From positions 962,572-1,026,571 of the forward strand of contig CAWDNZ010000004.1 in NCBI GenBank assembly GCA_963803845.1: a stretch of DNA of 64,000 nucleotides. The letters are read 5' to 3'. This document shows, in pieces, positions 556 through 40,810 of this stretch (position 1 is the stretch's first letter; each line of letters begins with the position of its first letter). This DNA comes from an uncultured Acidimicrobiales bacterium. GTDB taxonomy: Bacteria > Actinomycetota > Acidimicrobiia > Acidimicrobiales > SZUA-35. The position numbers were made by a program, and so were the translations under genes. The notes beneath the pieces were generated by a model. The model had not been told where the DNA came from, searched no databases, and worked only from the letters and a program-made list of their open reading frames with translations.

Positions 556-1893
556 ATGAAGCTTCGATCGGTTCTTGCGCTGCTGTTCACATTCGCGCTT
601 GTCAGCGCTGCCTGTACGGGGGGCTCCACGGCGGTAGACGATCCGCCCGCTGCCGATGACAGCGCTGCTGATGACAGCGCTGCCGATGACAGCGCTGCCG
701 ATGATGGCGCAGCCGATGATGGCGCAGCCGATGATGGCGCAGCCGATGATGATGCTGCTCCGCCGTCGGCAACCGGTCTCGACATCGACACGATCCTCGC
801 CGCAGATTTGAACAACTGCGCCCCCGCCCCCACCGGGGACCCGATCAAGGTGGGCATGGCGATGGACTTCAGCGAGGTAGTCGGCTTCGTGGACATCCCC
901 GGCTCCAAGCTCGTGCCCTATGTCGCTGAACTGATCAACTGCACCGGTGGAATCAACGGTTCACCGGTTGAGGTGCAGGTGCAGGACGTTGGCGGCGACG
1001 CCGGTAAGGCCGCTCTGGCCACGGACGAGCTTCTGAACTGGGGCGCGCAGTTCCTTATCGGTCCACCATTTGCCGATTTCGCTCTCCCAATTCTCCAGAC
1101 CACCGAAGGCAAGGTGCCGCTCTTCCTGGCGGCTTCCACCGAGCCAACGTTGCCAGATGCCAGCATCAACTCCTTCAACGTCTCGTTCGATGACACGCTG
1201 CAATCCACCGCCGCTGCCAAATGGGCGCTGGATCAGGGCATTACCCGGGCGATCGTGTTCACCGAGGGTCAGGGAATTGCCTATTCCGGCTACAACCCGG
1301 ACGTGTTTGCTGAAGTGTTTACCGCCGGTGGCGGCGAAGTGGTCAGCACCCAAACCTATGTCTGGGGGGCCGACACCGACTTCTCCGCCCAGGTAAATGA
1401 AATCGCCGGGCTCTCTGAAAACAACGAAGTGGTCTTCTCGGCCGCACTCGCTTTCCAAGTGACCGCACTTCGGGGCCAGCTGGAGGGCCAGGGCCTCGAC
1501 TCGCTCACCTACATCGGAACCGACGCGTTGGATGCAACGGGTATTTCCTTTGAGGACAACAACGAAGGCATCGCCCACACCCCCCATGTCACAATCGTGG
1601 CGGGGGATCGCAACGACAAGCTCCTCGCCGACTTCGCCGCCGCGGAGGGTGAAGAGCTTGAGAGCCGGGGCTTCATGCCGCTGTACGTTGACTCCATGTT
1701 CCTGGGCATCCAGGGGATTCTCGATTGCGGTTGCACCGATTCCGAGGGCATCGGTGCCGCCGTTGCCCAGATCTCCGGATTCCAGGGCCTCTCGGGTGAG
1801 ATCACCTACGCCGGAACCAACGGGATCCCCACCAAGAAGGTTCCAGTTCACCGGATCGTGAACGGCGAAGACGTCCAGGTTGACGTGAAATAA
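556..1893 (+). CDS. ABC transporter substrate-binding lipoprotein, LivK / Peripla_BP_6-like (branched-chain amino acid / amide type)
   Basis: Signal peptide plus lipobox (ALVSAAC), an acidic pentapeptide-repeat tether, then a type I periplasmic binding fold. First gene of a liv-like operon. Confidence 0.8.
   Translation: MKLRSVLALLFTFALVSAACTGGSTAVDDPPAADDSAADDSAADDSAADDGAADDGAADDGAADDDAAPPSATGLDIDTILAADLNNCAPAPTGDPIKVGMAMDFSEVVGFVDIPGSKLVPYVAELINCTGGINGSPVEVQVQDVGGDAGKAALATDELLNWGAQFLIGPPFADFALPILQTTEGKVPLFLAASTEPTLPDASINSFNVSFDDTLQSTAAAKWALDQGITRAIVFTEGQGIAYSGYNPDVFAEVFTAGGGEVVSTQTYVWGADTDFSAQVNEIAGLSENNEVVFSAALAFQVTALRGQLEGQGLDSLTYIGTDALDATGISFEDNNEGIAHTPHVTIVAGDRNDKLLADFAAAEGEELESRGFMPLYVDSMFLGIQGILDCGCTDSEGIGAAVAQISGFQGLSGEITYAGTNGIPTKKVPVHRIVNGEDVQVDVK
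649..753 (+). repeat. In-frame 15-bp tandem repeat x7 (GCNGCYGATGAYNRY) encoding AADDS/AADDG pentapeptides
   Basis: Units read directly at 649, 664, 679, 694, 709, 724 and 739. Confidence 0.95.
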
Positions 1894-3501: not shown

Positions 3502-5357
3502 TGTTCCCCAATCTCAAGAGAGACGTGGCCTTCCCAGTTGTGGGGTCACTGCTCCTCTTCGGTCTAGTGCTGGGCGCCGGCCTTATCTATCAGGTGCTGG
3601 TGGGCGGAGCATCCGAACGGCTCGTAACCGCAATGCTCATCGACGCAATAATGGTGATCGGTATCCAGATCTACATTGGAAATACCGGCGTCTTGTCCTT
3701 CGGTCATATCGGCTTTGGCGCCATCGCTGGCTACGCCTTCGCTGTTCTGGCGATTAGCCCCGAGCAGAAAGCCAAAGTCCTGCCCAACGCCCCATTCGGA
3801 CTCACCAACAATGGGCTCATTCCTGCGGGAGCAGTGGTAGTGGCCATCATCGTCACGGTGGCCGTGGCGGTTATCGTCGGTCTGGGTTTGGCCCGCTCGG
3901 GCGCTCAATCGGGGGCGGTATCGGCAACCGTCATAACCCTGGCGTTGCTCTTCGTGACACATGAGGTTGCTCGAAACTGGACCGAGCTAACCGGTGGCAA
4001 TCGAATCGGGCTGTCCTTCCAGATCGGCGGGAAGCTGAATTCCCGGATCCCGATTCTGCTGGCGCTGGCCGCGTCGATCGTGGTGGCGAGAGTGTTCGCC
4101 CAAAGCCGCAGTGGGCGATTGGCCGCGGCCGCCCGTGAAGACAATCTGGCCGCTCGCGCCATGGGCGTAAACCCGCTCGTGCAGCAGATGGTGGCCCTGC
4201 TGCTCTCCGTCGTTGTGGTCAGCGTTGCGGCTTCGTTGCGGGTGTTCGAGACCGGCACCATCCTCCCCAATCAGTTCTTCTTTTCCTATACCTTGCTCAC
4301 GCTCGTGATGTTGATCGTGGGCGGGCGCAACAGCGTCACCGGTGCAGTGGTGGGGACCATGGTGATCACCGCCGGAAGTGAGCTGGCCCGCCGTATGGGC
4401 ACGTCCGGATTTGAGTTCTTCGGGCTCGGACTCGACGACGCTCCGGCTGACTGGATCTTCCGAGAGGGTCTCCCCACTGTCTTTCTCGGCGCGGCCATGG
4501 TGGGCTTCATGATTTGGAGGCCCATTGGCCTACTGGATGATTGGGAACTGGATGAGTGGCTGTTCGAGCGATTTGGCCGAGGCGAGGATCTTCAGCCGAG
4601 TGGTCTCCCCGAGGTGGCCGACACTCCCGTGGCCCGCCTCGCCGCCACGGGGATCGATGTCCGCTTTGGAGGGTTTCAGGCGCTCGATCAGGCTGGCCTC
4701 ACAGCCACCAGTGGTGAAATCGTGGGGATCATCGGACCCAATGGCGCCGGGAAAACCACGCTGGTGAACGTGATCACCGGCATGGTTCCGCCGACCGCCG
4801 GCGAGTTTTCCATCGATGATCGGGATCTCACCCGGGCCCCGGCCCACATCCTGGCCAGGACAGGTTTGGTTCGGACCTTTCAGAACCTCCGGCTCTTCGG
4901 TGCGCTCACAGTTCGCGAGAACGTTGAGGCGGCGGCGCTGGTGGCCCGAGAACACCGGTCCCACCGCATTCTTCCCGATGCCGATTCACTTGTTGCCGAG
5001 GCGGGCTTGTGGGAACACCGTAATCGCCGGGCTCGGGAGCTGGATTACGGCAACTCCCGGCGGCTCGAGTTGGCTCGGGCGGCAGCCATGGCCCCGGCGT
5101 TCATGCTGCTCGACGAGCCCACCAGCGGCATGAGCGACACGGAGTCCATCACCATGATCGAGCAGGTGCGCCATATGGCTGCCACGGTGGGCGCCGGTGT
5201 GATCGTCATCGATCACGATCTCAACTTCATCACTGGGATCTCAGACCGAATCTACGTTCTCGATCAGGGCCAAGTCATCGCTGAGGGGACACCTACCGAG
5301 GTCCAGGCCGACCCGCTGGTTCAGGCCGCCTACCTGGGATACGAAGCGGAGGCGTAG
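3501..5357 (+). CDS. Fused LivM-like permease / LivG-like ATPase
   Basis: ATG at 3501 overlaps the livH TGA (TGATG). The track ORF from 3384 is an Arg-rich extension inside livH. N-terminal ~10 TM region, then C-terminal GPNGAGKTT...LLDEPTSG. Confidence 0.8.
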   Translation: MFPNLKRDVAFPVVGSLLLFGLVLGAGLIYQVLVGGASERLVTAMLIDAIMVIGIQIYIGNTGVLSFGHIGFGAIAGYAFAVLAISPEQKAKVLPNAPFGLTNNGLIPAGAVVVAIIVTVAVAVIVGLGLARSGAQSGAVSATVITLALLFVTHEVARNWTELTGGNRIGLSFQIGGKLNSRIPILLALAASIVVARVFAQSRSGRLAAAAREDNLAARAMGVNPLVQQMVALLLSVVVVSVAASLRVFETGTILPNQFFFSYTLLTLVMLIVGGRNSVTGAVVGTMVITAGSELARRMGTSGFEFFGLGLDDAPADWIFREGLPTVFLGAAMVGFMIWRPIGLLDDWELDEWLFERFGRGEDLQPSGLPEVADTPVARLAATGIDVRFGGFQALDQAGLTATSGEIVGIIGPNGAGKTTLVNVITGMVPPTAGEFSIDDRDLTRAPAHILARTGLVRTFQNLRLFGALTVRENVEAAALVAREHRSHRILPDADSLVAEAGLWEHRNRRARELDYGNSRRLELARAAAMAPAFMLLDEPTSGMSDTESITMIEQVRHMAATVGAGVIVIDHDLNFITGISDRIYVLDQGQVIAEGTPTEVQADPLVQAAYLGYEAEA

Positions 5358-11347: not shown

Positions 11348-12592
11348 GTGACCCCCGCCGCCGCGCCCATCGATTTGAACGATCCGGCAACGTTCGCGGC
11401 CGGGATTCCTCACGAGGGCTTTTCCCAGATGCGAGCCGCCCCGGGGTTGTGTTGGTCCCCCGCCGGCCGGGGCGCAACGGCCGGCTTCTGGTCTGTCGCT
11501 CGCCACGCCGATCTTGGTGTGGTCTCCCGCGACTCCGCAACCTATTCCTCGGCCGTCGGCCATATCCAGATCTACGACATCGACGTTGACGCTCTGGATG
11601 CTCGGGCCTCCATGATCGACATGGACCCGCCGATCCACACCCGGCTACGGCGACTGGTGAGTTCGGCATTCACTCCTCGACATGTGCTGGCCTACACCGC
11701 GGCGGTTCGAAACCGCATACGCGCCGCGCTGGATGACCTTCAGGTCAACGGCGGTGGAGACTGGGTGAAGACGGTGGCTGCTCCGATCCCGATTGGCGTG
11801 ATCTGCGATCTGATGGGTGTTCCTGAAGAGGATCATCGCTACATGATCGAACTCTCGGATCATCTCGTAGCAGGCACCGGACAGGAGCCGTTGGAGCCCA
11901 CTGCGTACGGCAACACCACCGAGCTCCGGCTGCTCCCGTTCAACAGCCCGGCCGCATCGGCGATGTCCGCCTACGCCAACAAACTGGCCGACCGCCGCCG
12001 CTTGGCTCCAACTGACGATCTGATCTCCAAACTGATTACGGCCGAGATCGACGGTGAGCGACTGACACCCGACGAGTTCGCCAACTTTTTCCGGCTCATG
12101 ATTTTCGCTGGCAACGAAACCACGCGGTCGTCCATGGCCCACCTCGCCCTTCACCTCCAGCAGTTCCCGGATGCGTTTGCCGCGGTGGAACGGGATCGCT
12201 CACTGCTCCCTGCCGTGGCAGATGAGGTCATCCGTTACTCCTCGCCCATCCTCTACTTCCGGCGCACGGTCACTAAGGCAACCGAACTCGCCGGCACCCC
12301 GCTGACCGTTGGCGACAAGGTTGTCATGTGGTATGCATCGGCCAACTTCGACGCAACGGTCTTTCCCTCACCGCAGGAGTTCCGGGTGGATCGGCCGTCG
12401 GTCCCTGCCCATGTGGCTTTCGGCGGCGGTGGGGCTCACTATTGCCTCGGCGCCTCCCTGGCCCGGCTGGAAGTTTCCGTACTCATCGACGAGATCCTCG
12501 ATCGGCGGTTGCGGCCGGTCTCCACCGGCCAGCCGATCTTTGTGGAATCCAACTTCGTCAACGGCATAGAGTCACTCCCGGTGCACCTATGA
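11348..12592 (+). CDS. Cytochrome P450 (paralog 2)
   Basis: FGGGGAHYCLG, AGNETT, GTG start. Clearly paralogous to P450-1 (shared GNTTELRLLPFNSPA). Confidence 0.9.
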   Translation: MTPAAAPIDLNDPATFAAGIPHEGFSQMRAAPGLCWSPAGRGATAGFWSVARHADLGVVSRDSATYSSAVGHIQIYDIDVDALDARASMIDMDPPIHTRLRRLVSSAFTPRHVLAYTAAVRNRIRAALDDLQVNGGGDWVKTVAAPIPIGVICDLMGVPEEDHRYMIELSDHLVAGTGQEPLEPTAYGNTTELRLLPFNSPAASAMSAYANKLADRRRLAPTDDLISKLITAEIDGERLTPDEFANFFRLMIFAGNETTRSSMAHLALHLQQFPDAFAAVERDRSLLPAVADEVIRYSSPILYFRRTVTKATELAGTPLTVGDKVVMWYASANFDATVFPSPQEFRVDRPSVPAHVAFGGGGAHYCLGASLARLEVSVLIDEILDRRLRPVSTGQPIFVESNFVNGIESLPVHL

Positions 12593-13791
12593 CGGTTGAT
12601 GCCTTTGGCGCCCCGGTTGCGGCTGCTTCACCCGAATCGGTGATGGCGTGGGATGCGGCATGGATGGATTTTTACCACTTCGAGGGGCAGGCATTCCGGC
12701 TGCTGGCCGCCGCCAACGACACCGATGACGCCTTCGCCCTGGGGTCTGTCTTTTGCGGCACTTATCGGATCTTGGGTGGATCCGCCCCCGATTCGTACCG
12801 GGTCCAAACGGATCTGGAACGAGCCCGCACCCGCTCGAGCAGCGACCGCGAGCTCAGCCATTTGGACGCTCTGGGCCATATGGTCGATGGCGACTTCAGC
12901 CGTGCCGCCAAACGCTGGGATAGTATTGCCGCCGCCTGCCATGATCTGGCCGCAGTGCGATTCGCTCACGATGTCTACCTGCATGTAGGTGATGATCACG
13001 GCCGGCTCGCTTCCAGTTCGCGGGCTGCCGCCGATTGGCCAAAGGACGCCGCCGGCGGTGGATTCGTGCTTGGTCAATACTCCTTCGCACTGGAGGAGGC
13101 CGGTGACTACGCCGCCGCGGAAGATGTCGGTTGGCAGGCGTTGGAACGTGACCATCGGGACCTCTGGGCTCTCCACGCCCTCGCCCATGTCTATGAGAGC
13201 ACGGAGAGTCATACTCAGGCCTTGGATCTCCTGCGAGGGCGAATGGAAACGTGGAGCCAACAGCCAGCCCTCGCCACGCACATTTGGTGGCATCTTGCGC
13301 TCCGTCTGATCGCCGCCGGATCCTTCGACGAGGTGTTGGCGATCCACGACTCGCTCCAGCCCGAGACAACGATGCCGTTCGGGCTCAGTGATTTGGCCTC
13401 GCTCCTCTGGAGGCTCGAATTGGTGGGAGTGGATGTTGGTGGTCGGTGGAAGCCCCTCGCCGACGCGTTCGCATCCCGGCACGAGCAGCACACCGTTGGG
13501 TTTCTCGACCTTCACTTTGCGCTGGTCTTTGCCCGCTGTCCGGATCATCCCGCCGCAGCGACGTTCTTCGCCAGCGTCCTCGAGCGGCACGCTGGTGCGG
13601 CCGAGAACAACGAGACTTTTCAGAATGTCGTGAAACCGCTCACCGAGGCGATTCGGATCAGCGGCAGCCAACCCGATTGCGCCCTCACACTGCTGCAATC
13701 GATCGAAGCCGATACGTATCGGATCGGCGGCAGCATCGCCCAACGAGACCTGATCAACCGAACCCGGACGGCCCTGGAGGCGCACCGATGA
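12589..13791 (+). CDS. TTC38-family tetratricopeptide-repeat protein
   Basis: ATGA overlap with the P450-2 stop. Blocks RFAHDVYLHVG, HIWWHLALRLI and IGGSIAQRDL align with my recollection of TTC38. Confidence 0.7.
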   Translation: MTVDAFGAPVAAASPESVMAWDAAWMDFYHFEGQAFRLLAAANDTDDAFALGSVFCGTYRILGGSAPDSYRVQTDLERARTRSSSDRELSHLDALGHMVDGDFSRAAKRWDSIAAACHDLAAVRFAHDVYLHVGDDHGRLASSSRAAADWPKDAAGGGFVLGQYSFALEEAGDYAAAEDVGWQALERDHRDLWALHALAHVYESTESHTQALDLLRGRMETWSQQPALATHIWWHLALRLIAAGSFDEVLAIHDSLQPETTMPFGLSDLASLLWRLELVGVDVGGRWKPLADAFASRHEQHTVGFLDLHFALVFARCPDHPAAATFFASVLERHAGAAENNETFQNVVKPLTEAIRISGSQPDCALTLLQSIEADTYRIGGSIAQRDLINRTRTALEAHR

Positions 13792-14993
13792 CATGGCAAC
13801 TCAGCCCCGAACAGATCGACCTTCAGACTCGGGCCCGACAACTGGCCACCACCGTGATCGGGCCGCGTGCGGTTGAGGTCGACGCCGCGGAGCAGTACCC
13901 GTGGGAGAACGTCGCGGCGCTCAAGGAGGCCGGTTTCACCGGGATGACCGTTCCCCGGGAGCTGGGCGGGGCGGGCCGATCCTTCCTCGATGCCGTCCTC
14001 GTTGTGGAGGAGATGGCCAAGGTGTGTGGCGTAACCGGCCGTATCGCCGTGGAATGCAACATGGGAGCGATCTCGGCGGTGATGGCGTACGGGACCGATG
14101 GGCAGAAGAAGCTCGCTGCTGACCTCGTACTCAATGGCGACAAGCCAGCGATCTGCATCACCGAACCTGGTGCCGGTAGCTCGGCGTCACAGATGACAAC
14201 TCGCGCCGATCGAGTTGGCAGCGACTACGTCTTGAACGGCAAGAAACACTGGATCACGGGTGGAACCGTGTCGTTGCTTCACCTGATTTTCGCTCGGGTG
14301 TTCGATGAGGATGGGAACGAGGAGGGGATCGGTGGCTTCTTGGCAGTGCGCGATGAAACTCCCGGCCTGAGCTTTGGAAAACGGGAGCCGACCATGGGGC
14401 TTCGAGGTATCCCGGAGATGGAGGTGATCTTCACCGACATGCTGATCCCCGCCAGCATGGTGCTGATGCCGCCCTCCGGTTTCAAACGGGGCTTCGCAGA
14501 CCTCATGAACGCCTACAACTCTCAGCGGGTGGGGGCCGGAACGGTGGGCCTGGGAATCGCCCAAGGCGCTTACGAGCTGGCGTTGGCCTATGCCAAAGAA
14601 CGCCAACAGTTCGATCGCCCGATCGCCGAGTTCCAGGGACTTCAGTGGATGCTGGCAGACATGTCGGTGAAGCTGGAGGCGGCCCGCAGCCTCACCTACC
14701 GTGCGGCGGAGTCTCGGGGGGCAGACGGGTCGCCGTTTCCCGATGCCGCAATGGCCGCTCAGGCCAAGATCTTTACCGCCGAGGCGGCGATTCAAGTGGT
14801 GAATGATGCCCTTCAGGTCTTTGGGGCGGCCGGTTACAGCCGGGACAATCCGTTGGAACGCATGTACCGCGACGTTCGTATGTTCACCATCGGTGGAGGC
14901 ACGGCTCAAATCCTCCGCACCGTGGTTGCGTCTCGAATTTTGGATATGAAACTGCCGCAGACCCGCGGCGGGTTCCTCCCTCGTGACGCCTGA
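13788..14993 (+). CDS. Acyl-CoA dehydrogenase
   Basis: ATGA overlap start (MTWQLSPEQIDLQ...). Canonical ACAD blocks, including the C-terminal IGGGTAQILR. Confidence 0.9.
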   Translation: MTWQLSPEQIDLQTRARQLATTVIGPRAVEVDAAEQYPWENVAALKEAGFTGMTVPRELGGAGRSFLDAVLVVEEMAKVCGVTGRIAVECNMGAISAVMAYGTDGQKKLAADLVLNGDKPAICITEPGAGSSASQMTTRADRVGSDYVLNGKKHWITGGTVSLLHLIFARVFDEDGNEEGIGGFLAVRDETPGLSFGKREPTMGLRGIPEMEVIFTDMLIPASMVLMPPSGFKRGFADLMNAYNSQRVGAGTVGLGIAQGAYELALAYAKERQQFDRPIAEFQGLQWMLADMSVKLEAARSLTYRAAESRGADGSPFPDAAMAAQAKIFTAEAAIQVVNDALQVFGAAGYSRDNPLERMYRDVRMFTIGGGTAQILRTVVASRILDMKLPQTRGGFLPRDA

Positions 14994-16150
14994 TGCCTGC
15001 TCCTCTCGACGGTGTCCTTGTGGTGGCTCTGGAGCAAGCCGTGTCTGCCCCCTTTGCCACCCGTCAACTGGCCGATCTCGGCGCTGAGGTCCTCAAGGTG
15101 GAGCGCCCCGGCGAGGGAGAGTTCGCCCGGCACTATGACTCCGCAGTTGGGGGAACGTCGGCGTTCTTCGTGTGGGCCAACCGCGGCAAGCAGAGCATCG
15201 AGCTGGATATCAAGAATCCCACCGATCGGGCCACACTCGACCGCTTGATCGCGGGGGCCGACGTCTTCATCCAGAATATGTCGACCGCAGCAGCCGGTCG
15301 GCTGGGGCTGCTGGCTGATCAGCTCCGAGTGACCAATCCGAAGTTGATTGCGTGTGACATTTCGGGATATGGCCAGGGCGGTCCTCGAACCGACGACAAG
15401 GCATACGACCTCGCCATCCAGGCGGAAGCCGGCGCCATCGCCCTTACCGGAAGCGCCGAGGCCGTCTCAAAGGTGGGGTTCTCTGTGGCCGACATCAGCT
15501 CGGCGATGTATGCGTTCTCTTCCATCCTCGCTGCCTTGTATCGACGTCAGGCGACCGGTGAGGGCGCTTCGATCGAGGTGTCGATGTTGGAGAGTCTGGC
15601 CGAATGGACCGCCGTCCCCACCTATGCCGCCGTTGGACGGGGCGTGATCCCGCAACGGGCGGGCCATCGCCATGCCATGATCGCTCCGTACGGGATGTAT
15701 GCCCTCGCTGACGGCGAGATCATCATGATCGCAGTGCAGAGCAATCGGGAGTTCGTGTCGTTTGCCGAGCATGTACTTTGTGATGCAACCCTGAGCGAGG
15801 ACGTGAGGTTCGTCAACAATGACGACCGGATCGCCAACATCACCGCTCTCGAGAATGTGATCAACGAGACCTTTCGTTCGGTACCTGCGGGTGAGATCCG
15901 GGACCGCCTCCGGCTTGGCCGGATTACGCACAGCTCGGTTCGGGATCCGCATTCCCTGTGGCAGCACGAACAGCTACGGGCTCGGGGCCGCTTCATGACC
16001 GTGACCACCCCAACGGGCGAGGCCGAGGTCTATCGGTCACCGTTCAATATCAGCGGGGTTTCTGCACCACTCGCCACGATTCCGGCCCTCGGCGAGGACG
16101 CCACCGGGATCGTCGCTCGACTACTCGAACGGGCGGACCAGGGTGCCTGA
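14993..16150 (+). CDS. Family III CoA-transferase (CaiB/BaiF/Mcr-like)
   Basis: N-terminal LDGVLVVALEQAVSAPFATRQLADLGAEVLKVERP signature. Confidence 0.85.
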   Translation: MPAPLDGVLVVALEQAVSAPFATRQLADLGAEVLKVERPGEGEFARHYDSAVGGTSAFFVWANRGKQSIELDIKNPTDRATLDRLIAGADVFIQNMSTAAAGRLGLLADQLRVTNPKLIACDISGYGQGGPRTDDKAYDLAIQAEAGAIALTGSAEAVSKVGFSVADISSAMYAFSSILAALYRRQATGEGASIEVSMLESLAEWTAVPTYAAVGRGVIPQRAGHRHAMIAPYGMYALADGEIIMIAVQSNREFVSFAEHVLCDATLSEDVRFVNNDDRIANITALENVINETFRSVPAGEIRDRLRLGRITHSSVRDPHSLWQHEQLRARGRFMTVTTPTGEAEVYRSPFNISGVSAPLATIPALGEDATGIVARLLERADQGA

Positions 16151-16961
16151 TCGGCAGGCGCATACGGCATGGCGTGAGTCTGGTTCCGGTGAGCCGTTGG
16201 TCTTCTTGCACGGGTTGGGGGGCAGCGCGGATTCGTGGGGGCCACAGCTGGCCGACCTGAGCCAGTCCCGGCGCTGTATCGCCTGGGATATGCCCGGTTA
16301 TGGCGACTCTGATCCCGAAGACCCGCTCACCTATGAGGCGATCGCCGAGCGACTGGTGGCATTTCTCGATCGGTTGGCGATCGACCAGGCCGACCTGGTT
16401 GGCCTGTCGTTCGGAGGGATGCATGCCTTGCATACGGCCCTTGGTTTCCCCGACCGGGTTCGCCGCTTAGTGTTGGCCGACACCAGTCCGGAGTTTGGAA
16501 TGGATGGCACCGATCCGGAGGAGTGGAAGGCGGCTCGGCTTGCGGCGATCGGTGAGGGGCAAACACCGGGGTCGATCGGAGCAAGCGTTTTGGACGGCAT
16601 CGTGGCCCGACCGTTGGCGCCGGAAGTTCGTGAGGCGCTCATCGCATCGTTCGATCGTATTCCGGTGAGTGGGTTCCGAGCTGCGGTGGCGTGCCTCCCC
16701 GAAAACAGTATTCGCGATCAGCTCGGCGAGATTCCCCACCCGGCTCTGGTGATCGTGGGCGAACTGGATCAGGAGACACCGGTGTCCTATGCCCAGGCGT
16801 TGGCGGACGGCCTGCCAAATGCGCAGCTGGTGGTAATGCCGGGCGTTGGGCATCTGACTCCGTCCGAGGACCCCGATAGCTTCAATCGGCATGTTCGAGA
16901 GTTTCTCGATCTCACTTCCACTCTGACCACCACCAAGACATCCCAGGAGAACGCACCGTGA
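16143..16961 (+). CDS. Alpha/beta-fold hydrolase
   Basis: HGLGGS oxyanion region, GLSFGG nucleophile elbow, C-terminal GHL. Confidence 0.8.
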   Translation: MPDRQAHTAWRESGSGEPLVFLHGLGGSADSWGPQLADLSQSRRCIAWDMPGYGDSDPEDPLTYEAIAERLVAFLDRLAIDQADLVGLSFGGMHALHTALGFPDRVRRLVLADTSPEFGMDGTDPEEWKAARLAAIGEGQTPGSIGASVLDGIVARPLAPEVREALIASFDRIPVSGFRAAVACLPENSIRDQLGEIPHPALVIVGELDQETPVSYAQALADGLPNAQLVVMPGVGHLTPSEDPDSFNRHVREFLDLTSTLTTTKTSQENAP

Positions 16962-18169
16962 CCCTTGCTGGAATGGCCTATTCCGATGGCCTTCTCACCC
17001 CGGCCCGCGCCGAGGCGGTGGAGTTGATGCGGGCGCTCGGTCCCACGATCGCCGAACGATCGGCGAAATACGATCGAGAAGCCAGTTTTCCCTACGAAAA
17101 CTGGGATGATTTCGCAAATGCCGGTTTACTGGGTCTCTGCATCCCAATCGAGGCTGGCGGCCGGGGTTTGGATTTTGTGGGCTACGCCTTAGTGGCCGAG
17201 GAGCTCGGTCGGCACTGCACCGCCACCGCCCTCACGTTCAACATGCACATCGCTACCACGTTGCTCACCGGCCAAATCGCCGACGACATGCAACTCACCG
17301 CGGACGAACGAGCCCTGTTGCACGAGCGGCGCTCGCTGCTTCAAGCCGGCGTGATCGAGCGGCAGTTGATTCACAGCCAACCCTTCTCCGAAGGGATGTC
17401 CGCAGGCGCAACATCCGGCTTTGGCACAATGGCCGTTCCGGTGGAGGGTGGCTATCGGGTCACCGGTCGGAAGATCTTTGCTTCGCTCAGCGGAGCCGCC
17501 AACATCAACAACGTGGTGTGCATGGTTGAGGGAGATCCTCGAGTGCGTCTCCTTGGCGTGCCAGCCGACGGTGAAGGGGTGCGGATCGAGGGCGACTGGG
17601 ATCCGCTGGGGATGCGAGCCACCGACAGCCGGAACCTCGTGATGGACAACGTGTTCGTTCCCGCCGAGCACGAGTGGATCCCGCCCGGCATGTTCGATCA
17701 AGCTGCCCAACGCTGGCCCTATTTTTACATGACGCTCTCGTTCGCATACGTTGGCCTGATGCGCGGTGTTATGGACGCCACCGCCGAGTATCTCATCGGT
17801 GACGGTGGCCCCAACGCCCGCCGCAACCATCCCATCAAGCAGCAGGGGTGGACGGCGATGAACCTCATTTATGAGCAGGCCCAAGGGCTTTGTTATCGGG
17901 TACTCGGCGAGACGGGGGTGGACCCCACTCCGGCCGCGGTCAGGCGAGCCTGGGCATCGACGGTGACCACCATGGAAGGGTCGGCCGAACTGGCCTCTCT
18001 TGCCTTACGGGTATGCGGCGGTCGTTCGCTTTTGCGACCCTCCCGCCTGGAGCAGTTCTACCGCGATGCCCGCTGCGGTGCCACCATGCTCCCGTGGAGC
18101 GTGGAGGTCTGCATGGATCGCCTCGGCCGAGCCGACCTCTTCCGAGACGACTCCGAGTCCCCGGCATGA
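16958..18169 (+). CDS. Acyl-CoA dehydrogenase family protein (divergent)
   Basis: ACAD-like length and N-terminal and middle domains; weaker C-terminal similarity. Confidence 0.7.
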   Translation: MTLAGMAYSDGLLTPARAEAVELMRALGPTIAERSAKYDREASFPYENWDDFANAGLLGLCIPIEAGGRGLDFVGYALVAEELGRHCTATALTFNMHIATTLLTGQIADDMQLTADERALLHERRSLLQAGVIERQLIHSQPFSEGMSAGATSGFGTMAVPVEGGYRVTGRKIFASLSGAANINNVVCMVEGDPRVRLLGVPADGEGVRIEGDWDPLGMRATDSRNLVMDNVFVPAEHEWIPPGMFDQAAQRWPYFYMTLSFAYVGLMRGVMDATAEYLIGDGGPNARRNHPIKQQGWTAMNLIYEQAQGLCYRVLGETGVDPTPAAVRRAWASTVTTMEGSAELASLALRVCGGRSLLRPSRLEQFYRDARCGATMLPWSVEVCMDRLGRADLFRDDSESPA

Positions 18170-18293
18170 CCCGTGGTTCGATGACAGTGAGCTCCGATGA
18201 CCTGAGCTCCGATGACCTGAGCTCCGATGACCTGAGCTCCGATGACCCGTGGTTCGATGACAGGGCGTTCCGATGACAGGGTGGTCTCGATGA
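18166..18293 (+). repeat. Junction VNTR: nine ATGA start/stop overlaps spaced 15-17 nt, including 3 exact units of ATGACCTGAGCTCCG
   Basis: ATGA at 18166, 18181, 18197, 18212, 18227, 18242, 18257, 18273 and 18290, read directly. Confidence 0.95.
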
Positions 18294-19333
18294 CAGAGTG
18301 GCGGTGGGTGGAGCGTTACGCCCAGCAGTTTCGGGCCTGTGAGGTAGCGGCTGGCGATGTTGCCGTGGTGCTTTCGGAAACCACCAGCCGTCCGATCATC
18401 GTGGAGACCGCTCGTCTGGCCCTCGAGAGCCTCGGCGTCGCCGCCGTCCACGTGGCTGTTCCCACACCGCCCAATCCTGGTCCCGTGCCGATCCGATCCA
18501 CTGGGGCTTCGCAGGCCCTTGCTGGTCACCCGGCTGCCCTCGCTGCGCTCAGCACCGCCAGTTTCATCGTGGACTGCACCGTGGAGGGTTTGCTTCATGC
18601 CCCGGAGCTGGGCGCCATCTTGGCCGGCGGTGCCCGGGTGCTGATGATCTCCAACGAGCATCCGGAAAACACCGAGCGGTGGCCGCACGATCCCTCGCTT
18701 GCCCACCGGGTGGCTGATGGGCTCGCTCGGTTGGAGGCGGCCTCTACCATGCGGGTTGCCTCGGCTGCTGGCACCGACCTGACGATCAGGTTGACTGGAT
18801 CGTTTCGAACCGGATCGCATGGCTGGTGCAACGAGCCTGGGTCTATCGCCCACTGGCCGGGCGGACTTGTTCTGGCGTTCCCGGCCGAGGGTTCGGTGAA
18901 CGGCACCCTGGTTCTCGCGCCCGGTGATGTGAACCTCACCTTCAAGGAGTACCTACGGGAGACCGTGACGCTTACGATCGTGGCGGACTTCATCACCAAC
19001 ATCGAGGGCGACGGCGTTGACGCCGAGCTGTTCCGCTCCTATCTCGCGGCGTTCGGTGAGCCCGAGGCCTATGCCGTGAGCCACGTTGGCTGGGGCATGA
19101 ACACCGCAGCACGTTGGGACGCCATGGCCCTGTGGGACAAGGCCGATTTCAACGGGACCGAACTCCGGGCCTTCGCCGGCAACTTCCTGTACTCCACTGG
19201 CGCAAACGAAGTGGCCGGCCGGTTCTGCCGGGGCCATTTCGATTTGCCGATGCGAAACTGCACCGTTTCGTTGGACGGCGCGCCCATGGTAGTAGAAGGT
19301 GAACTGATCCCGGAGCTGCGTCCGGAGCCGTGA
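18290..19333 (+). CDS. NicX-like protein (2,5-dihydroxypyridine 5,6-dioxygenase / aminopeptidase-T fold family)
   Basis: C-terminal blocks SHVGWGMN, FAGNFLYSTGAN and GHFDLPMRNCTV resemble my recollection of NicX. Start could be 18242, 18257 or 18290 (all in frame). Confidence 0.65.
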   Translation: MTEWRWVERYAQQFRACEVAAGDVAVVLSETTSRPIIVETARLALESLGVAAVHVAVPTPPNPGPVPIRSTGASQALAGHPAALAALSTASFIVDCTVEGLLHAPELGAILAGGARVLMISNEHPENTERWPHDPSLAHRVADGLARLEAASTMRVASAAGTDLTIRLTGSFRTGSHGWCNEPGSIAHWPGGLVLAFPAEGSVNGTLVLAPGDVNLTFKEYLRETVTLTIVADFITNIEGDGVDAELFRSYLAAFGEPEAYAVSHVGWGMNTAARWDAMALWDKADFNGTELRAFAGNFLYSTGANEVAGRFCRGHFDLPMRNCTVSLDGAPMVVEGELIPELRPEP

Positions 19334-19358
19334 ACGAGGAGAGAGCTGGAAGCGTGCG

Positions 19359-20684
19359 ATGACCTTTGATCTGAATGACTACCAACGTGTTCGGGTGCTG
19401 TTCCCCGATCAGTTGGGTTTGGCCCGTGGCAAATACTTGATGCCGCATCTGGCCGAGCGGGGCACCGGCCACTGCGCCACCACCTACGGCCTGTCCTATG
19501 ACCGAAGCATGATTCCGGCGCCGGGCTCATATCTCCTCGAAGGGCTCATTGACCTTGAGTGCAAGCTGGATGCCAGCACACTGCGGCCCGGTTGGGAAGC
19601 GAACCCCACCGCGGTTGCCATTGGTGACCTCACACTTCACGGGGAACCGTTCCCCTATTCAGCTCGGTACGTGCTCCAGCAGGCGATCGCCTGCTGGGGC
19701 GACATGGGCTACTCGGTGAAGATTGGCATCGAAACCGAGGCCTACCTGCTGCAGCAGACCGGCGATGGCAAATGGGATCGTTACCAGAATCCTCGCTCGA
19801 TGGTGTACGGCACGGGGATAGGTAGCGACCCGACCGGCGTGATCGATGCCATCATGCGCACCGCCTTGGACAGCGGCTTTCGGATCGAATCGATCAATGC
19901 TGAGTTCGACGAGTCCCAGTACGAGCTGACGCTTCAATACGACGACGCCTTGAAGGCCACCGACGACATCTTCCTTTTCCGCTTGATGGCGCGCGAGATT
20001 GCTTTGGCCCATGGGCTGGATCTCACCTTCCTGGGCAAACCGTTTCCCGAGATCAGTGGGTCCGGGGTCCACGTGAACATGTCCCTGTGGGACGACAACG
20101 GTAACAACGTGCTGGCCGACAAGTCAGATCCGGACGGCATTTCAGCATTCGCGCGAAACGCCATTGCCGGACTGTGTGCCCACCATCAGGCACTGGTGGC
20201 GGTGACCGCTCCAACGGTGAACGCTTACCGACGGCTGCAACCCGCCCAATTGAGCGGCTACTGGGCCAACTGGGGACTCGACCACCGCTGCGTGGCAACT
20301 CGCGTTCCGCCGGCCCGCGGTGTCGGAACCCGGATCGAGAGCAGGGTGGCCGATGGGGCAGTCAACATTCATCTCGCCGTTGCGGCCGTCCTCACGGCGG
20401 CTCGACTGGGCGTGGTGAACCAACTGCCGTGCCCACCGCCCGAGACAGGTGACGGGTTTGAGGATGTCAACACCGACGTTGCGGCGGCAGCGAACCTCAA
20501 TGAAGCACTGGACCAGTTGGAGGCCGATGCCACGTTTTGCGCCGGAATAAGCCAGCCGTTGATCGACAACTTCGTTGCGAACAAACGAGCCGAATGGCAG
20601 CGGTTCATGGATGCTGAGGGCTCATTCGAGGGCTCCCAGCCCGCCAGCGTTTGGGAGCTCAACGAGTACATGATGTACCACTAG
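19359..20684 (+). CDS. Glutamine synthetase family protein (second gamma-glutamyl ligase-like paralog)
   Basis: GS catalytic blocks (NAEFDESQYELT, SGVHVNMSL, ESRVADGAVNIHL). Confidence 0.8.
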   Translation: MTFDLNDYQRVRVLFPDQLGLARGKYLMPHLAERGTGHCATTYGLSYDRSMIPAPGSYLLEGLIDLECKLDASTLRPGWEANPTAVAIGDLTLHGEPFPYSARYVLQQAIACWGDMGYSVKIGIETEAYLLQQTGDGKWDRYQNPRSMVYGTGIGSDPTGVIDAIMRTALDSGFRIESINAEFDESQYELTLQYDDALKATDDIFLFRLMAREIALAHGLDLTFLGKPFPEISGSGVHVNMSLWDDNGNNVLADKSDPDGISAFARNAIAGLCAHHQALVAVTAPTVNAYRRLQPAQLSGYWANWGLDHRCVATRVPPARGVGTRIESRVADGAVNIHLAVAAVLTAARLGVVNQLPCPPPETGDGFEDVNTDVAAAANLNEALDQLEADATFCAGISQPLIDNFVANKRAEWQRFMDAEGSFEGSQPASVWELNEYMMYH

Positions 20685-38610: not shown

Positions 38611-40128
38611 ATGCTCTCTCTTCTCGCACAGATTGATCAGCCGGAGTTCCTCCGGCCAGACATCGACTGGCATGCTGTGGCGCCCGAGCTGCTGTTGCTC
38701 GGCGGTGGGGCCATCATCACCACGCTGGATTTGGTCTTCCTGGAGCGCGTCCGTAAATACATGCCCACCCTCACCGGGCTCACGTTTCTCATTCCACTGA
38801 TCGCCGTTCTCACGCTCTGGAACCAATCCGAGGATCTTCCCCGGGTAATGTTCGACGGCGCATACGTGGTGGATCGTTACTCGCTGGCTCTCAAGATCCT
38901 GTTCCTGCTGTCGGGTTATGTGGTTGTGCTGCTGTCCAGCGAGTACATGGCCGAGGGCGACTATTACGAAAGCGAGTTCTATCAGCTGTTGTCGGCATCG
39001 CTCCTAGGCATGATCGTCATGAGCTCGGCGCGTGATCTCATCTCGATCTTCGTCGCCCTCGAACTCATCTCCATCCCGGCCTACCTCATGGCGGCGTGGC
39101 GCAAGCGGGACCTCAAATCCAACGAAGCCGGCCTCAAATACATGCTGATGGGCGTATTCGCCAGCGGCATCATGCTGTATGGAATGAGCCTGCTTTATGG
39201 CTTCACCGGCGATACCAAGCTGTCCGCCATCGCCGGCGCTATTGGAAACGGTGGTGAAACGTCGCCGCTCATCACCTTGGCCATCGTGTTCACCGTGATC
39301 GGGTTCGGGTTCAAAGTGAGCGCCGTTCCGTTCCACACCTGGGCGCCGGACACCTATGAAGGCGCCCCCACGCCCCTCACCGCCTTCCTTGCCGTGGCCT
39401 CCAAGTCCGCCGGATTCGTGGCACTGATCAGCATCGTTCTGGTGGCGCTCCCAGCCCAGTCCAACGTGGTGGAGCCCCTCATGTGGGTCCTCTCCGCTCT
39501 GACCATGACCGTCGGCAACCTGATCGCCCTCCGTCAGACCAACATCGTCCGCATGCTGGCCTACTCCGGCGTGGCCCAGGCTGGCTACATGCTGGCGCCA
39601 CTCGCCGTGTTCGGCGACAACTTCACCGGAACCACCAACCCGGCGAACGCCATCGTCAACTACTTACTGGTCTATGCAGCCATGAACCTCGGAGCCTTCG
39701 CCGTGGTGCTGCTGGTGGCTCGCAAGACTCGCTCGGGTGAGATCGCCAGCTATGGCGGACTCATGAATTACGCCCCCGGGCTTGGCGCCGCCATGACGCT
39801 GTTCATGTTCTCCCTCGCCGGCATCCCGCCGGTGGGTGGCTGGTGGGCCAAGTTCCAGATCTTCAACGTTCTCACCCAGAACGGGTCCTGGGCCGGAATC
39901 TCCCTAGCGGTGATCGCAGCCGTGAACAGCGTGATCGCGGCGTTCTACTACCTGAACATCGCCAAGCAGATGTGGTTCCTGCCCGAACCGAACGAAGATC
40001 ACACCCCGATCGGCTTCCCGGCCCCACTGGCGATTGCTCTCGGCATCACCGTGATCGCCACCATCGTGTTCGGCATCCTGCCCGGCATCACCGGCGATCT
40101 CAGCGACTTCACCAACGTCGCGCTCTAA
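38611..40128 (+). CDS. nuoN: NADH-quinone oxidoreductase subunit N
   Basis: FKVSAVPFHTWAPDTYEGAPTP. ATG at 38611 lies just after the nuoM stop. Confidence 0.9.
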   Translation: MLSLLAQIDQPEFLRPDIDWHAVAPELLLLGGGAIITTLDLVFLERVRKYMPTLTGLTFLIPLIAVLTLWNQSEDLPRVMFDGAYVVDRYSLALKILFLLSGYVVVLLSSEYMAEGDYYESEFYQLLSASLLGMIVMSSARDLISIFVALELISIPAYLMAAWRKRDLKSNEAGLKYMLMGVFASGIMLYGMSLLYGFTGDTKLSAIAGAIGNGGETSPLITLAIVFTVIGFGFKVSAVPFHTWAPDTYEGAPTPLTAFLAVASKSAGFVALISIVLVALPAQSNVVEPLMWVLSALTMTVGNLIALRQTNIVRMLAYSGVAQAGYMLAPLAVFGDNFTGTTNPANAIVNYLLVYAAMNLGAFAVVLLVARKTRSGEIASYGGLMNYAPGLGAAMTLFMFSLAGIPPVGGWWAKFQIFNVLTQNGSWAGISLAVIAAVNSVIAAFYYLNIAKQMWFLPEPNEDHTPIGFPAPLAIALGITVIATIVFGILPGITGDLSDFTNVAL

Positions 40129-40810
40129 TTCCCTCCGGGGGCCGTTCAAACGCCACGGAGGCTTTGCCTTCGGCCTGGCGACAGATGCTTGCGTGGCTTT
40201 GTGTTTGACTGCATAGGGCTTCCCTCCGGGGGGCGTGCTCTGACTCCCTCCGGGGGCGTGCTCTGACTCCCTCCGGGGGGCGTTCCGCCGGGCACGCAGC
40301 CCTCGCCTTCGGCTTGGCGACAGATGCTTGCGTGGCTTTGTGTTTGACTGCGCAACGATTCCCTTCGGGGGCGTGCTCTGACTCCCTCCGGGGGCCGTTC
40401 AAACGCCACGGAGGCTTTGCCTTCGGCCTGCCAAAGATGCGTCAGAAACTGAATGCGTGACTGCATAGGGCTTCCCTTCGGGGGCGTGCTCTGACTCCCT
40501 CCGGGGGGCGTTCCGCCGGGCACGCAGCCCTCGCCTTCGGCCTGGCGACAGATGCTTGCGTGGCTTTGTGTTTGACTGCATAGGGCTTCCCTTCGGGGGC
40601 GTGCTCTGACTCCCTCCGGGGGGCGTTCCGCCGGGCACGCAGCCCTCGCCTTCGGCCTGGCGACAGATGCTTGCGTGGCTTTGTGTTTGACTGCATAGGG
40701 CTTCCCTCCGGGGGCCGTTCAAACGCCACGGAGGCTTTGCCTTCGGCCTGGCGACAGATGCTTGCGTGGCTTTGTGTTTGACTGCGCAACGATTCCCTCC
40801 GGGGGGCGTT
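40129..40810 (+). repeat. Mosaic (BIME-like) intergenic repeat array: 12 P motifs, 6 Y cores, 2 connector types, 5 mini-units
   Basis: Modules read directly. There is an exact 115-bp tandem duplication (40473-40587 and 40588-40702). Confidence 0.95.

What the first reader, a model, noticed from the sequence alone, without database searches (positions are those of the whole stretch)
18166..18293. Gene-junction VNTR that relays translational coupling through nine ATGA overlaps
Between the ACAD-like gene and the NicX-like gene, the motif cgATGAc occurs nine times, spaced 15-17 nt (18166, 18181, 18197, 18212, 18227, 18242, 18257, 18273, 18290). The first ATGA is the ACAD stop. From its ATG, a 36-codon ORF (MTRGSMTVSSDDLSSDDLSSDDLSSDDPWFDDRAFR) runs to the TGA at 18274-18276. 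That stop overlaps ATG 18273, which opens a 6-codon ORF (MTGWSR) ending at 18291-18293. That stop in turn overlaps ATG 18290 of the downstream gene. The units look like serial duplications of the original junction: ATGACAG(A/G)GTGG occurs at 18273 and 18290, and ATGACCCGTGGTTCG occurs twice. This is the logic described for mycobacterial MIRUs (repeats in operon junctions carrying mini-ORFs that overlap the flanking genes), but with a 15-bp unit. Copy-number change could tune downstream expression.
Basis: seen in the sequence. Interest (0 to 1): 0.6.

Follow-up and report, generated by a model that had tools for sequence, protein, structure and literature searches.

The report
Tandem copies of a gene junction
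Between two neighbouring metabolic genes of an uncultured Acidimicrobiia bacterium lie eight extra, partly decayed copies of the four-letter stop/start overlap (ATGA) that joins these genes directly in related species; the repeat is real, but nothing shows that it regulates anything.

Summary
Nine ATGA motifs sit at the stated coordinates, 15-17 nt apart. The first is the stop of the ACAD-like gene. The last (18290) is the start of the NicX-like gene, as judged from homologue N-termini.

The six closest relatives available, and many others, join these two genes by a direct ATGA, GTGA or TGATG overlap. The 124-nt array is therefore a derived, local expansion of that junction. The units read as NicX head plus ACAD tail.

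The unbroken chain of -4 overlaps (a 36-codon ORF, then a 6-codon ORF, then NicX) exists. It occurs in only 3% of unit permutations. Three results argue against it being required or tunable:
- ATG 18290 has its own Shine-Dalgarno-like AGGGTGG, supplied by the last unit and typical in strength for this family.
- Changing the number of 15-nt units never breaks the chain, so there is no on/off switch.
- Relatives with expanded junctions keep a path about as often as chance predicts.

Length polymorphism could not be tested because no close strain exists in any collection. I found no special RNA structure, Rfam match, promoter, terminator or dispersed copies.

Verdict: a junction-derived minisatellite that is tolerated because each copy carries its own stop, start and SD-like. 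It resembles a MIRU in logic only and is not a member of that family. Interest is modest.

The parts
16958..18169 (+). ACAD-like gene (acyl-CoA dehydrogenase fold). Its stop, TGA 18167-18169, lies inside the first ATGA.
   Evidence: ORF. Pfam Acyl-CoA_dh_N/M/C. It aligns over residues 1-403 to the upstream gene of NicX homologues in relatives.
18166..18289 (+). Junction-derived tandem array of eight units of 15-17 nt, each beginning with ATGAC. This is 124 nt that relatives lack.
   Evidence: Relatives have a direct overlap at this position.
18197..18241 (+). Three identical 15-nt units (ATGACCTGAGCTCCG), the youngest part of the array. Each holds a two-codon ORF, ATG ACC TGA, in the ACAD/NicX frame.
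18166..18276 (+). Mini-ORF 1, 36 codons. Its ATG overlaps the ACAD stop (ATGA) and its TGA overlaps ATG 18273.
   Evidence: The frame was checked.
18273..18293 (+). Mini-ORF 2, 6 codons (MTGWSR). Its TGA overlaps ATG 18290.
18278..18284 (+). Shine-Dalgarno-like AGGGTGG, 5 nt upstream of ATG 18290. It is a copy of NicX codons 2-4 (ACA GAG TGG) with an A>G change.
   Evidence: Predicted pairing with the canonical anti-SD is -7.7 kcal/mol, in the top 7% of all ATG/GTG contexts in the window. The AGAGTGG version gives -3.8.
18290..19333 (+). NicX-like gene (PF26233; sources call it 'peptidase M29' or 2,5-dihydroxypyridine dioxygenase-like), with the probable true start at ATG 18290 (347 aa).
   Evidence: Homologues of 344-348 aa begin M-T-E-W at this position. 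It has the best SD-like of all candidate starts.
18242..18289 (+). In-frame upstream extension of the NicX ORF, made of units 6-8. The database protein P0001 (363 aa) is called from here, which is probably a mis-called start.
   Evidence: There is no SD-like (-1.9 kcal/mol), and the extension is absent from homologues.

Best explanation
The array is a locally generated minisatellite. An ancestral 4-nt stop/start overlap (…CCGGCATGACAGAGTGG…) between the ACAD-like and NicX-like genes of a conserved catabolic operon was duplicated in tandem. Slippage then re-duplicated it several times and the copies partly decayed. The result is eight extra copies of the junction.

Such a duplication harms neither gene. 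The first copy still ends ACAD. The last copy still starts NicX at 18290. The copy before it places NicX's own purine-rich codons 2-4, now AGGGTGG, at Shine-Dalgarno distance from that start.

NicX is therefore most likely translated from 18290 by ordinary SD-assisted initiation. Ribosomes that finish ACAD may add to this by re-initiating at ATG 18166 and being carried by the 36-codon mini-ORF to within 14 nt of 18290, where they can re-initiate directly or through the 6-codon ORF.

The array itself is a tolerated by-product rather than a dedicated regulator.

Shown: the repeat, its derived status, its junction origin, the frames and the SD-like. Inferred: the slippage mechanism, the route of initiation and the neutrality.
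For: - Direct -4 or -1 overlaps occur in the closest relatives: L083 (80% NicX identity), L005 and L013 (80% ACAD identity), L016, L086 and L084. About 20 further loci show the same.
- Unit 8 matches a hypothetical 'NicX head + ACAD tail' unit at 15 of 20 positions. Units 1 and 6 are identical, and units 3-5 are identical.
- Independent small duplications of the same junction, or of neighbouring gene ends, occur in L023, L063, L021, L070, L071/L075 and L045/L052.
- Homologue N-termini align at 18290.
- SD-like energies are 18290 -7.7, 18242 -1.9 and 18166 -2.5 kcal/mol. The family median is about -7.
- RNA folding is no more stable than shuffles (z = -0.01). There are no Rfam, promoter or terminator hits.
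- The units are not found elsewhere in the window.
- The three junctions upstream in the same operon are -1, -8 and -4 overlaps. A tight junction is thus the local norm and this one is the exception.
Against: - The complete chain of -4 overlaps is found in only 112 of 3360 unit orders (3.3%) and in 7% of bootstrapped arrays. That hints at some selection to keep coupling.
- The A>G change that creates the SD-like could also be adaptive, which would make the array more than neutral.
- There are no expression or ribosome data.
- The anti-SD sequence was assumed to be canonical, because no 16S rRNA lies in the window.
Confidence: 0.6

Rival explanations
1. The array is a selected relay: ribosomes ending ACAD re-initiate at ATG 18166, translate 36 codons, re-initiate at ATG 18273, translate 6 codons and re-initiate at ATG 18290. 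Coupling is thereby transmitted over 120 nt, and repeat number tunes NicX output.
For: - The chain exists exactly as described.
- It is rare among permutations of the same units (3.3%).
- Bridging mini-ORFs with overlaps at both ends arose independently in relatives: L026 (7 codons, where the NicX start has no SD-like, -1.1 kcal/mol), L070 (25 codons) and L019/L020 (6 codons).
- The ACAD tail in this genome has no SD-like (-2.5), so the ancestral overlapped start probably relied on coupling.
- Short ORFs that deliver ribosomes through a -4 overlap are an accepted mechanism (review PMC12548453).
Against: - ATG 18290 has its own SD-like of family-typical strength.
- Two successive re-initiations would multiply their losses.
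- Competing ATGs lie along the path: three 2-codon ORFs, plus 18242 and 18257 in the NicX frame.
- Copy number of the 15-nt units cannot switch the chain (0-11 copies all work), so 'tuning' has no frame-based mechanism.
- Among independent expansions of this junction in relatives, a path to NicX is kept in roughly 7 cases and lost in 5. That is about what the three possible phases predict.
Confidence: 0.22
2. NicX really starts at ATG 18242, as in the database annotation (363 aa). Units 6-8 then encode a 16-residue N-terminal extension, and only 72 nt are intergenic.
For: It is the longest ORF. It is the protein on record, P0001, in NCBI, ENA and Logan. Some homologues carry N-terminal extensions of similar length (P0043, P0061, P0066, P0101).
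Against: There is no SD-like before 18242 (-1.9 kcal/mol, no better than 73% of background contexts). The extension consists of repeat units and aligns with nothing in homologues. Most homologues start at the MTEW position.
Confidence: 0.1
3. The repeat is a cis-regulatory nucleic-acid element: iterated binding sites for a protein on DNA or RNA, an attenuator, or a small RNA.
For: The regular 15-nt spacing of CGATGAC and the palindromic GAGCTC in four units could in principle be recognition sites.
Against: Folding energy equals that of shuffles. No Rfam match at E<=1. No promoter-like or terminator-like site lies in or next to the array. The array is absent from all relatives, which keep the operon. 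No other copy occurs in the window.
Confidence: 0.04
4. The array is an assembly or sequencing artefact.
For: Tandem repeats are error-prone, and only one sample carries this genome.
Against: Two Logan unitigs from run ERR12040029 give identical sequence on both sides and enter the perfect units from each side. The imperfect units could not be produced by a collapse or expansion error. Only the exact number of perfect units (3) remains unverified.
Confidence: 0.03

Closest known systems
MIRU (mycobacterial interspersed repetitive units; Supply et al. 1997, as summarised in PMC12548453 and PMC2734929)
   Same: Both are tandem units sitting in the junction of co-oriented operon genes. In both, short ORFs inside the repeat overlap the stop of the upstream gene and the start of the downstream gene with -4 spacing, so insertion need not break translational coupling.
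   Different: MIRU units are 40-100 bp, occur at about 41 loci of the M. tuberculosis genome and appear to be mobile. Here the units are 15-17 nt and derive from the local junction itself. No other copy was seen in the 64-kb window or in JGI metagenomes, and the host is an Acidimicrobiia bacterium. Two chained ORFs are needed rather than one ORF per unit.
Intergenic VNTRs that expand a tight gene junction, e.g. ETR-F/VNTR3239 between rnc and fpg in the M. tuberculosis complex (PMC2734929)
   Same: Relatives have only a few bases (1-6 bp there, -4 here) between the two genes. One lineage has a repeat-filled spacer that ends at the downstream start codon.
   Different: That locus is 279-358 bp of longer composite repeats and has documented length polymorphism between isolates. 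Here polymorphism is untested, and the unit is a copy of the stop/start overlap.
Translational coupling by termination-reinitiation at -4 (ATGA) overlaps, and short 'delivery' ORFs coupled to a downstream gene (review PMC12548453)
   Same: The ancestral junction is a classic -4 overlap. Mini-ORF 2 (18273-18293) has exactly the architecture of a delivery ORF.
   Different: Here the overlap motif is iterated nine times. Dependence of NicX on upstream translation is not shown, and an SD-like offers an independent route.

Membership tests
MIRU | Repeat unit of 40-100 bp | tested here: not met
   Units are 15, 16 or 17 nt. The MIRU size is taken from PMC2734929.
MIRU | Interspersed family: related units at many loci of the same genome, apparently mobile | tested here: inconclusive
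   No other copy with up to 3 mismatches above chance in the 64-kb window. 0 hits for a two-unit pattern in JGI metagenome contigs. The units derive from the local flanks. Only about 3% of the 2.05-Mb contig could be read.
MIRU | Located in the junction between co-oriented genes of an operon | tested here: met
   The array lies between the ACAD-like and NicX-like genes. Their adjacency is conserved in most of the 80 related loci.
MIRU | Internal ORF(s) whose start and stop overlap the stop and start of the flanking genes (-4) | tested here: met
   ATG 18166 overlaps the ACAD stop. TGA 18291-18293 overlaps ATG 18290. The two are linked through a second ATGA at 18273.
MIRU | Host in the genus Mycobacterium | tested here: not met
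   All close homologues are from Acidimicrobiia/Acidimicrobiales MAGs. Similarity to a MIRU consensus was not tested because no MIRU sequence was at hand.
VNTR / minisatellite | Head-to-tail copies of a unit of about 10 nt or more | tested here: met
   TRF scores of 122 and 71.
VNTR / minisatellite | Copy number differs between strains | not testable with these tools
   The nearest NicX homologue is 80% identical. The 90% cluster has one member. A degenerate flank pattern and a unit pattern found nothing in metagenome contigs.
Translationally coupled gene pair (termination-reinitiation) | Stop of the upstream gene overlaps or abuts the start of the downstream gene | tested here: not met
   120 nt separate the ACAD stop from ATG 18290 (72 nt from ATG 18242). 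The feature is met in the closest relatives and is preserved here only indirectly, through chained mini-ORFs.
Translationally coupled gene pair (termination-reinitiation) | Downstream translation depends on upstream translation | not testable with these tools
   This needs reporters or ribosome profiling.
Short 'delivery' ORF coupled to a gene | Short ORF ending in a -4 overlap on the start of a bona fide gene | tested here: met
   Mini-ORF 2 (18273-18293) overlaps ATG 18290. Its translation is not shown.

The most novel reading that the evidence does not exclude
When a -4 stop/start overlap is pulled apart by tandem duplication, selection may keep an unbroken chain of ATGA overlaps, so that translational coupling is relayed across the new spacer. 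That would be a MIRU-like coupling device born locally from the junction itself instead of from a mobile element. The independent bridging mini-ORFs in L026, L070 and L019/L020, and the 3% permutation result here, would then be traces of a general rule. The same process could be how MIRU-type elements originate.
Probability: 0.15. Interest if true: 0.6.

Novelty: new variant of a known kind. Interest (0 to 1): 0.35.

Why it matters
If the best explanation holds, the locus shows clearly how overlapping, coupled genes can be separated without damage. A tandem duplication across an ATGA overlap leaves an intact stop in the first copy and an intact start in the last. Here it also creates a Shine-Dalgarno-like from the duplicated codons.

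There are three practical consequences:
- The NicX-like protein on record (363 aa) probably starts 16 codons too early, inside the repeat.
- The three perfect 15-nt units are a candidate strain marker.
- The locus offers a natural construct for testing how far, and through how many hops, re-initiation can carry ribosomes in Actinomycetota.

It does not reveal a new kind of system.

Tried and rejected
- **RNA structure of 18140-18330.** Minimum free energy is -68.5 kcal/mol against a shuffle mean of -68.5 (z = -0.01). Rejected.
- **Known RNA families.** No Rfam match at E<=1 around the array, and none at gathering score in the whole window. No tRNA.
- **Promoter or terminator.** No promoter-like site in 17000-19500. 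The two terminator-like hits are at chance level and lie at 18846 and 19221, outside the array.
- **Dispersed element.** The units are not found elsewhere in the window above chance.
- **Alleles in other samples.** The exact ACAD and NicX proteins occur only in run ERR12040029 and the 2.05-Mb contig. The single genome-contig scan returned only relatives at 79% identity or less.
- **A coding acidic linker.** SSDDL x3 resembles the AADDS repeat at 648-751. I rejected this because the frame is closed after 36 codons, it is not the frame of either gene, and relatives lack it. The shared CCGATGA core is just Asp-Asp codons.
- **Read-through fusion of ACAD and NicX.** They share a frame, but five in-frame TGAs intervene, and TGA also ends NicX, so the code is standard.
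- **Enrichment of relay-compatible junctions among relatives.** The tally is about 7 kept against 5 lost, so there is no signal.
- **L061 14-nt x3 ATGA chain as a second clean example.** The ORF it feeds is only 45 codons, so I downgraded it.

Full report
**What is in the sequence.** Reading 17900-18600 shows ATGA at 18166, 18181, 18197, 18212, 18227, 18242, 18257, 18273 and 18290. These define eight units:
- u1 ATGACCCGTGGTTCG
- u2 ATGACAGTGAGCTCCG
- u3, u4, u5 ATGACCTGAGCTCCG
- u6 ATGACCCGTGGTTCG (identical to u1)
- u7 ATGACAGGGCGTTCCG
- u8 ATGACAGGGTGGTCTCG

They are followed by ATGACAGAGTGGCGG…, the head of the downstream gene. The first motif is gcATGAc and the other eight are cgATGAc. 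TRF scores the array 122 (period 15, 96% match) and 71 (period 16). The window holds 33 CGATGAC on both strands, eight of them in this array, against 15.8 expected; no shuffle reached 33. Two unitigs from an independent Logan assembly of run ERR12040029 reproduce both edges and stop inside the perfect units. The array is therefore not an assembly invention. Only the exact count of perfect units is unverified.

**The flanking genes.** The upstream ORF 16958-18169 has the three acyl-CoA dehydrogenase domains. The downstream ORF belongs to PF26233 (NicX), which sources name 'peptidase M29' or 2,5-dihydroxypyridine dioxygenase. Both sit in an operon of co-oriented genes: ACAD, CoA-transferase, alpha/beta hydrolase, ACAD-like, NicX-like and glutamine-synthetase-like. 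The three junctions upstream of the array are -1, -8 and -4 overlaps. All close homologues come from uncultured Acidimicrobiia/Acidimicrobiales, including Ca. Poriferisocius. The longest NicX ORF starts at 18242, and that is the protein on record (P0001, 363 aa). Homologues are 344-348 aa, however, and begin M-T-E-W at the position of ATG 18290.

**Comparative evidence: the array is a derived insertion at an ancestral overlap.** One scan of species-representative genomes gave 80 related loci, and ACAD-NicX adjacency is conserved in most. The closest relatives all join the two genes directly:
- L083 (NicX 80% identical) …CACCGGCATGACCACCGAGTGG…
- L005 and L013 (ACAD 80% identical) …CCCCGCATGAGAACCGAATGG…
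- L016 ATGA
- L086 GTGA
- L084 TGATG

About 20 more distant loci also show a -4 overlap. The window's flanks, …TCCCCGGCATGA and ATGACAGAGTGG…, fit the same pattern once the 124 nt between them are removed. A unit built as NicX head plus ACAD tail (ATGACAGAGTGG+TCCCCGGC) matches u8 at 15 of 20 positions. The other units grade away from it, and u3-u5 and u1/u6 are identical. This indicates several rounds of duplication, the last one recent. The slippage mechanism is an inference from general knowledge of tandem repeats.

**Duplications at gene ends recur in this clade.**
- L023 repeats AATCCGGCATAGC (the ACAD end with its stop).
- L063 repeats CAAATGACAG (the NicX start).
- L021 carries a 65-nt copy of the ACAD 3' end.
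- L070 has GCATGAGC twice, 74 nt apart.
- L071 and L075 have 3.5 copies of a 19-nt unit taken from the NicX 3' end.
- L045 and L052 repeat the hydrolase 3' end.

Duplications that span a gene border leave both genes intact. I infer that this is why they survive.

**Reading frames and the relay.** All ORFs in the array are listed.
- ATG 18166, which overlaps the ACAD stop, opens 36 codons ending at TGA 18274-18276.
- That stop overlaps ATG 18273, which opens 6 codons ending at TGA 18291-18293.
- That stop overlaps ATG 18290.
- There are also three two-codon ORFs (ATG ACC TGA) at 18197, 18212 and 18227.
- ATGs at 18242 and 18257 lie in the NicX frame.

In a permutation test the strict chain exists in 112 of 3360 orders of the same units (3.3%) and in 7% of bootstrapped eight-unit arrays. 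This is suggestive, but it is post hoc and not decisive. The chain survives any copy number (0-11) of the 15-nt unit and 14 of 16 single-unit gains or losses. Slippage in the perfect core would only lengthen or shorten mini-ORF 1 by five codons. There is no frame-based switch or obvious dial.

**An independent route to initiation.** I assumed a canonical anti-SD, because no 16S rRNA lies in the window. The 18 nt before ATG 18290 pair at -7.7 kcal/mol through AGGGTGG (18278-18284, 5 nt from the ATG). That is in the top 7% of all ATG/GTG contexts in the window and equals the value for the ACAD start (-7.4). By comparison, 18242 gives -1.9 and 18166 gives -2.5. NicX homologues have a median of about -7 whether they overlap ACAD or not. 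The SD-like is the duplicated copy of NicX codons 2-4; the ancestral spelling AGAGTGG would give only -3.8. The last unit thus supplies a family-typical ribosome-binding site, and NicX need not depend on the relay. Even so, translation of mini-ORF 1 would end 14 nt before 18290. Coupling over such distances ranges from good to about 10-fold reduced depending on the organism (review PMC12548453), so some coupling remains plausible.

**Do relatives speak for selection on the relay?** Bridging mini-ORFs with overlaps at both ends arose independently in L026 (7 codons; there the NicX start has no SD-like, -1.1), in L070 (25 codons) and in L019/L020 (6 codons). In-frame extensions back to a GTGA overlap occur in L063, in L049 and in the 17-nt-spacer Poriferisocius group. 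L010, L014, L021, L025 and L055 have lost any such path. Counting lineages roughly, that is 7 kept against 5 lost, which is what the three possible phases would give by chance. The sample is small.

**Other functions considered.** I found no extra RNA stability (z = -0.01), no Rfam match, no promoter-like site and no terminator-like site near the array. I also found no dispersed copies in the window or in JGI metagenomes. The SSDDL repeat in mini-ORF 1 resembles the coding AADDS repeat at 648-751 only through Asp-Asp codons.

**Polymorphism.** This could not be tested. The 90% clusters of both proteins contain only this genome, the exact proteins occur in a single run, and a degenerate flank pattern found nothing in metagenomes.

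**Comparison with known systems.** The logic matches what is described for MIRUs: a repeat in an operon junction whose internal ORFs overlap the neighbours' stop and start, so that coupling can persist. Membership fails on unit size (15-17 against 40-100 bp) and taxon. Dispersal is unsupported, and polymorphism is untestable. The rnc-fpg ETR-F locus of the M. tuberculosis complex is a good analogue for the evolutionary pattern: relatives have 1-6 bp there and one lineage has a repeat-filled spacer. I found no paper describing arrays built from copies of the ATGA overlap itself. That search covers open-access text only.

**Verdict.** The array is best read as a junction-derived minisatellite, tolerated because every copy carries a stop, a start and an SD-like. 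The relay is possible but unproven and is not needed to explain NicX expression. I rate it a new variant of a known kind, with interest 0.35.

Noticed in passing
window 648-751: A second 15-bp tandem repeat (6.9 copies, 94% match) is coding. It spells AADDS/AADDG repeats in the linker after the signal peptide of a Peripla_BP_6 solute-binding protein (ORF 556-1893). It shares the CCGATGA core with the junction array only through Asp-Asp codons.
   Followed up: partly
window 40122-40810: About 700 bp of intergenic composite tandem repeats, with units of 91-139 bp and a 23-nt sub-repeat TCCCTCCGGGGGGCGTGCTCTGAC carrying short GC hairpins. It has no Rfam match at E<=1, and its nature is unknown.
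   Followed up: partly
window 18242-18289 (protein P0001): The NicX-like protein on record in NCBI, ENA and Logan (363 aa) is called from ATG 18242 inside the repeat. Homologue N-termini and the SD-like favour ATG 18290 (347 aa).
   Followed up: yes
L026 3972-3995; L070 3915-3992; L019/L020 about 3980-4003: In these relatives the ACAD-NicX junction has expanded independently. A single mini-ORF (7, 25 or 6 codons) starts on the ACAD stop (ATGA or GTGA) and ends in a TGA that overlaps the NicX ATG. In L026 the NicX start has no SD-like of its own.
   Followed up: partly
L023 3940-3967; L063 3815-3845; L021 3910-3985; L071/L075 5029-5095; L045 3933-3975 (= L052 1821-1863): Tandem duplications of gene ends, including stop or start codons, recur in related Acidimicrobiia loci: the ACAD 3' end, the NicX start, the NicX 3' end (19 nt x 3.5) and the hydrolase 3' end (21 nt x 2).
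   Followed up: partly
L062 3780-3989: Where the ACAD-like gene is absent, a 69-codon ORF starts TAATG on the hydrolase stop and ends GTGA on the NicX start. It carries 9-nt repeats (CCCAGATGA, giving TQM/TQT) and a His/Gly-rich tail. It could be a small protein or another junction-filling ORF.
   Followed up: partly
L061 8068-8108: A 14-nt x 3 repeat (GATCACACAATGAG) forms two 5-codon ORFs chained by ATGA overlaps into the next ATG. The ORF it feeds is only 45 codons, so its status as a gene is doubtful.
   Followed up: partly
window 11348-20684: There is a conserved catabolic cluster: P450, ACAD, family III CoA-transferase, alpha/beta hydrolase (PcaD-like), ACAD-like, NicX-like and a glutamine-synthetase-like ligase. 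The pairs from the ACAD gene (13446-14993) through CoA-transferase and hydrolase to the ACAD-like gene are joined by -1, -8 and -4 overlaps. The substrate is unknown.
   Followed up: no
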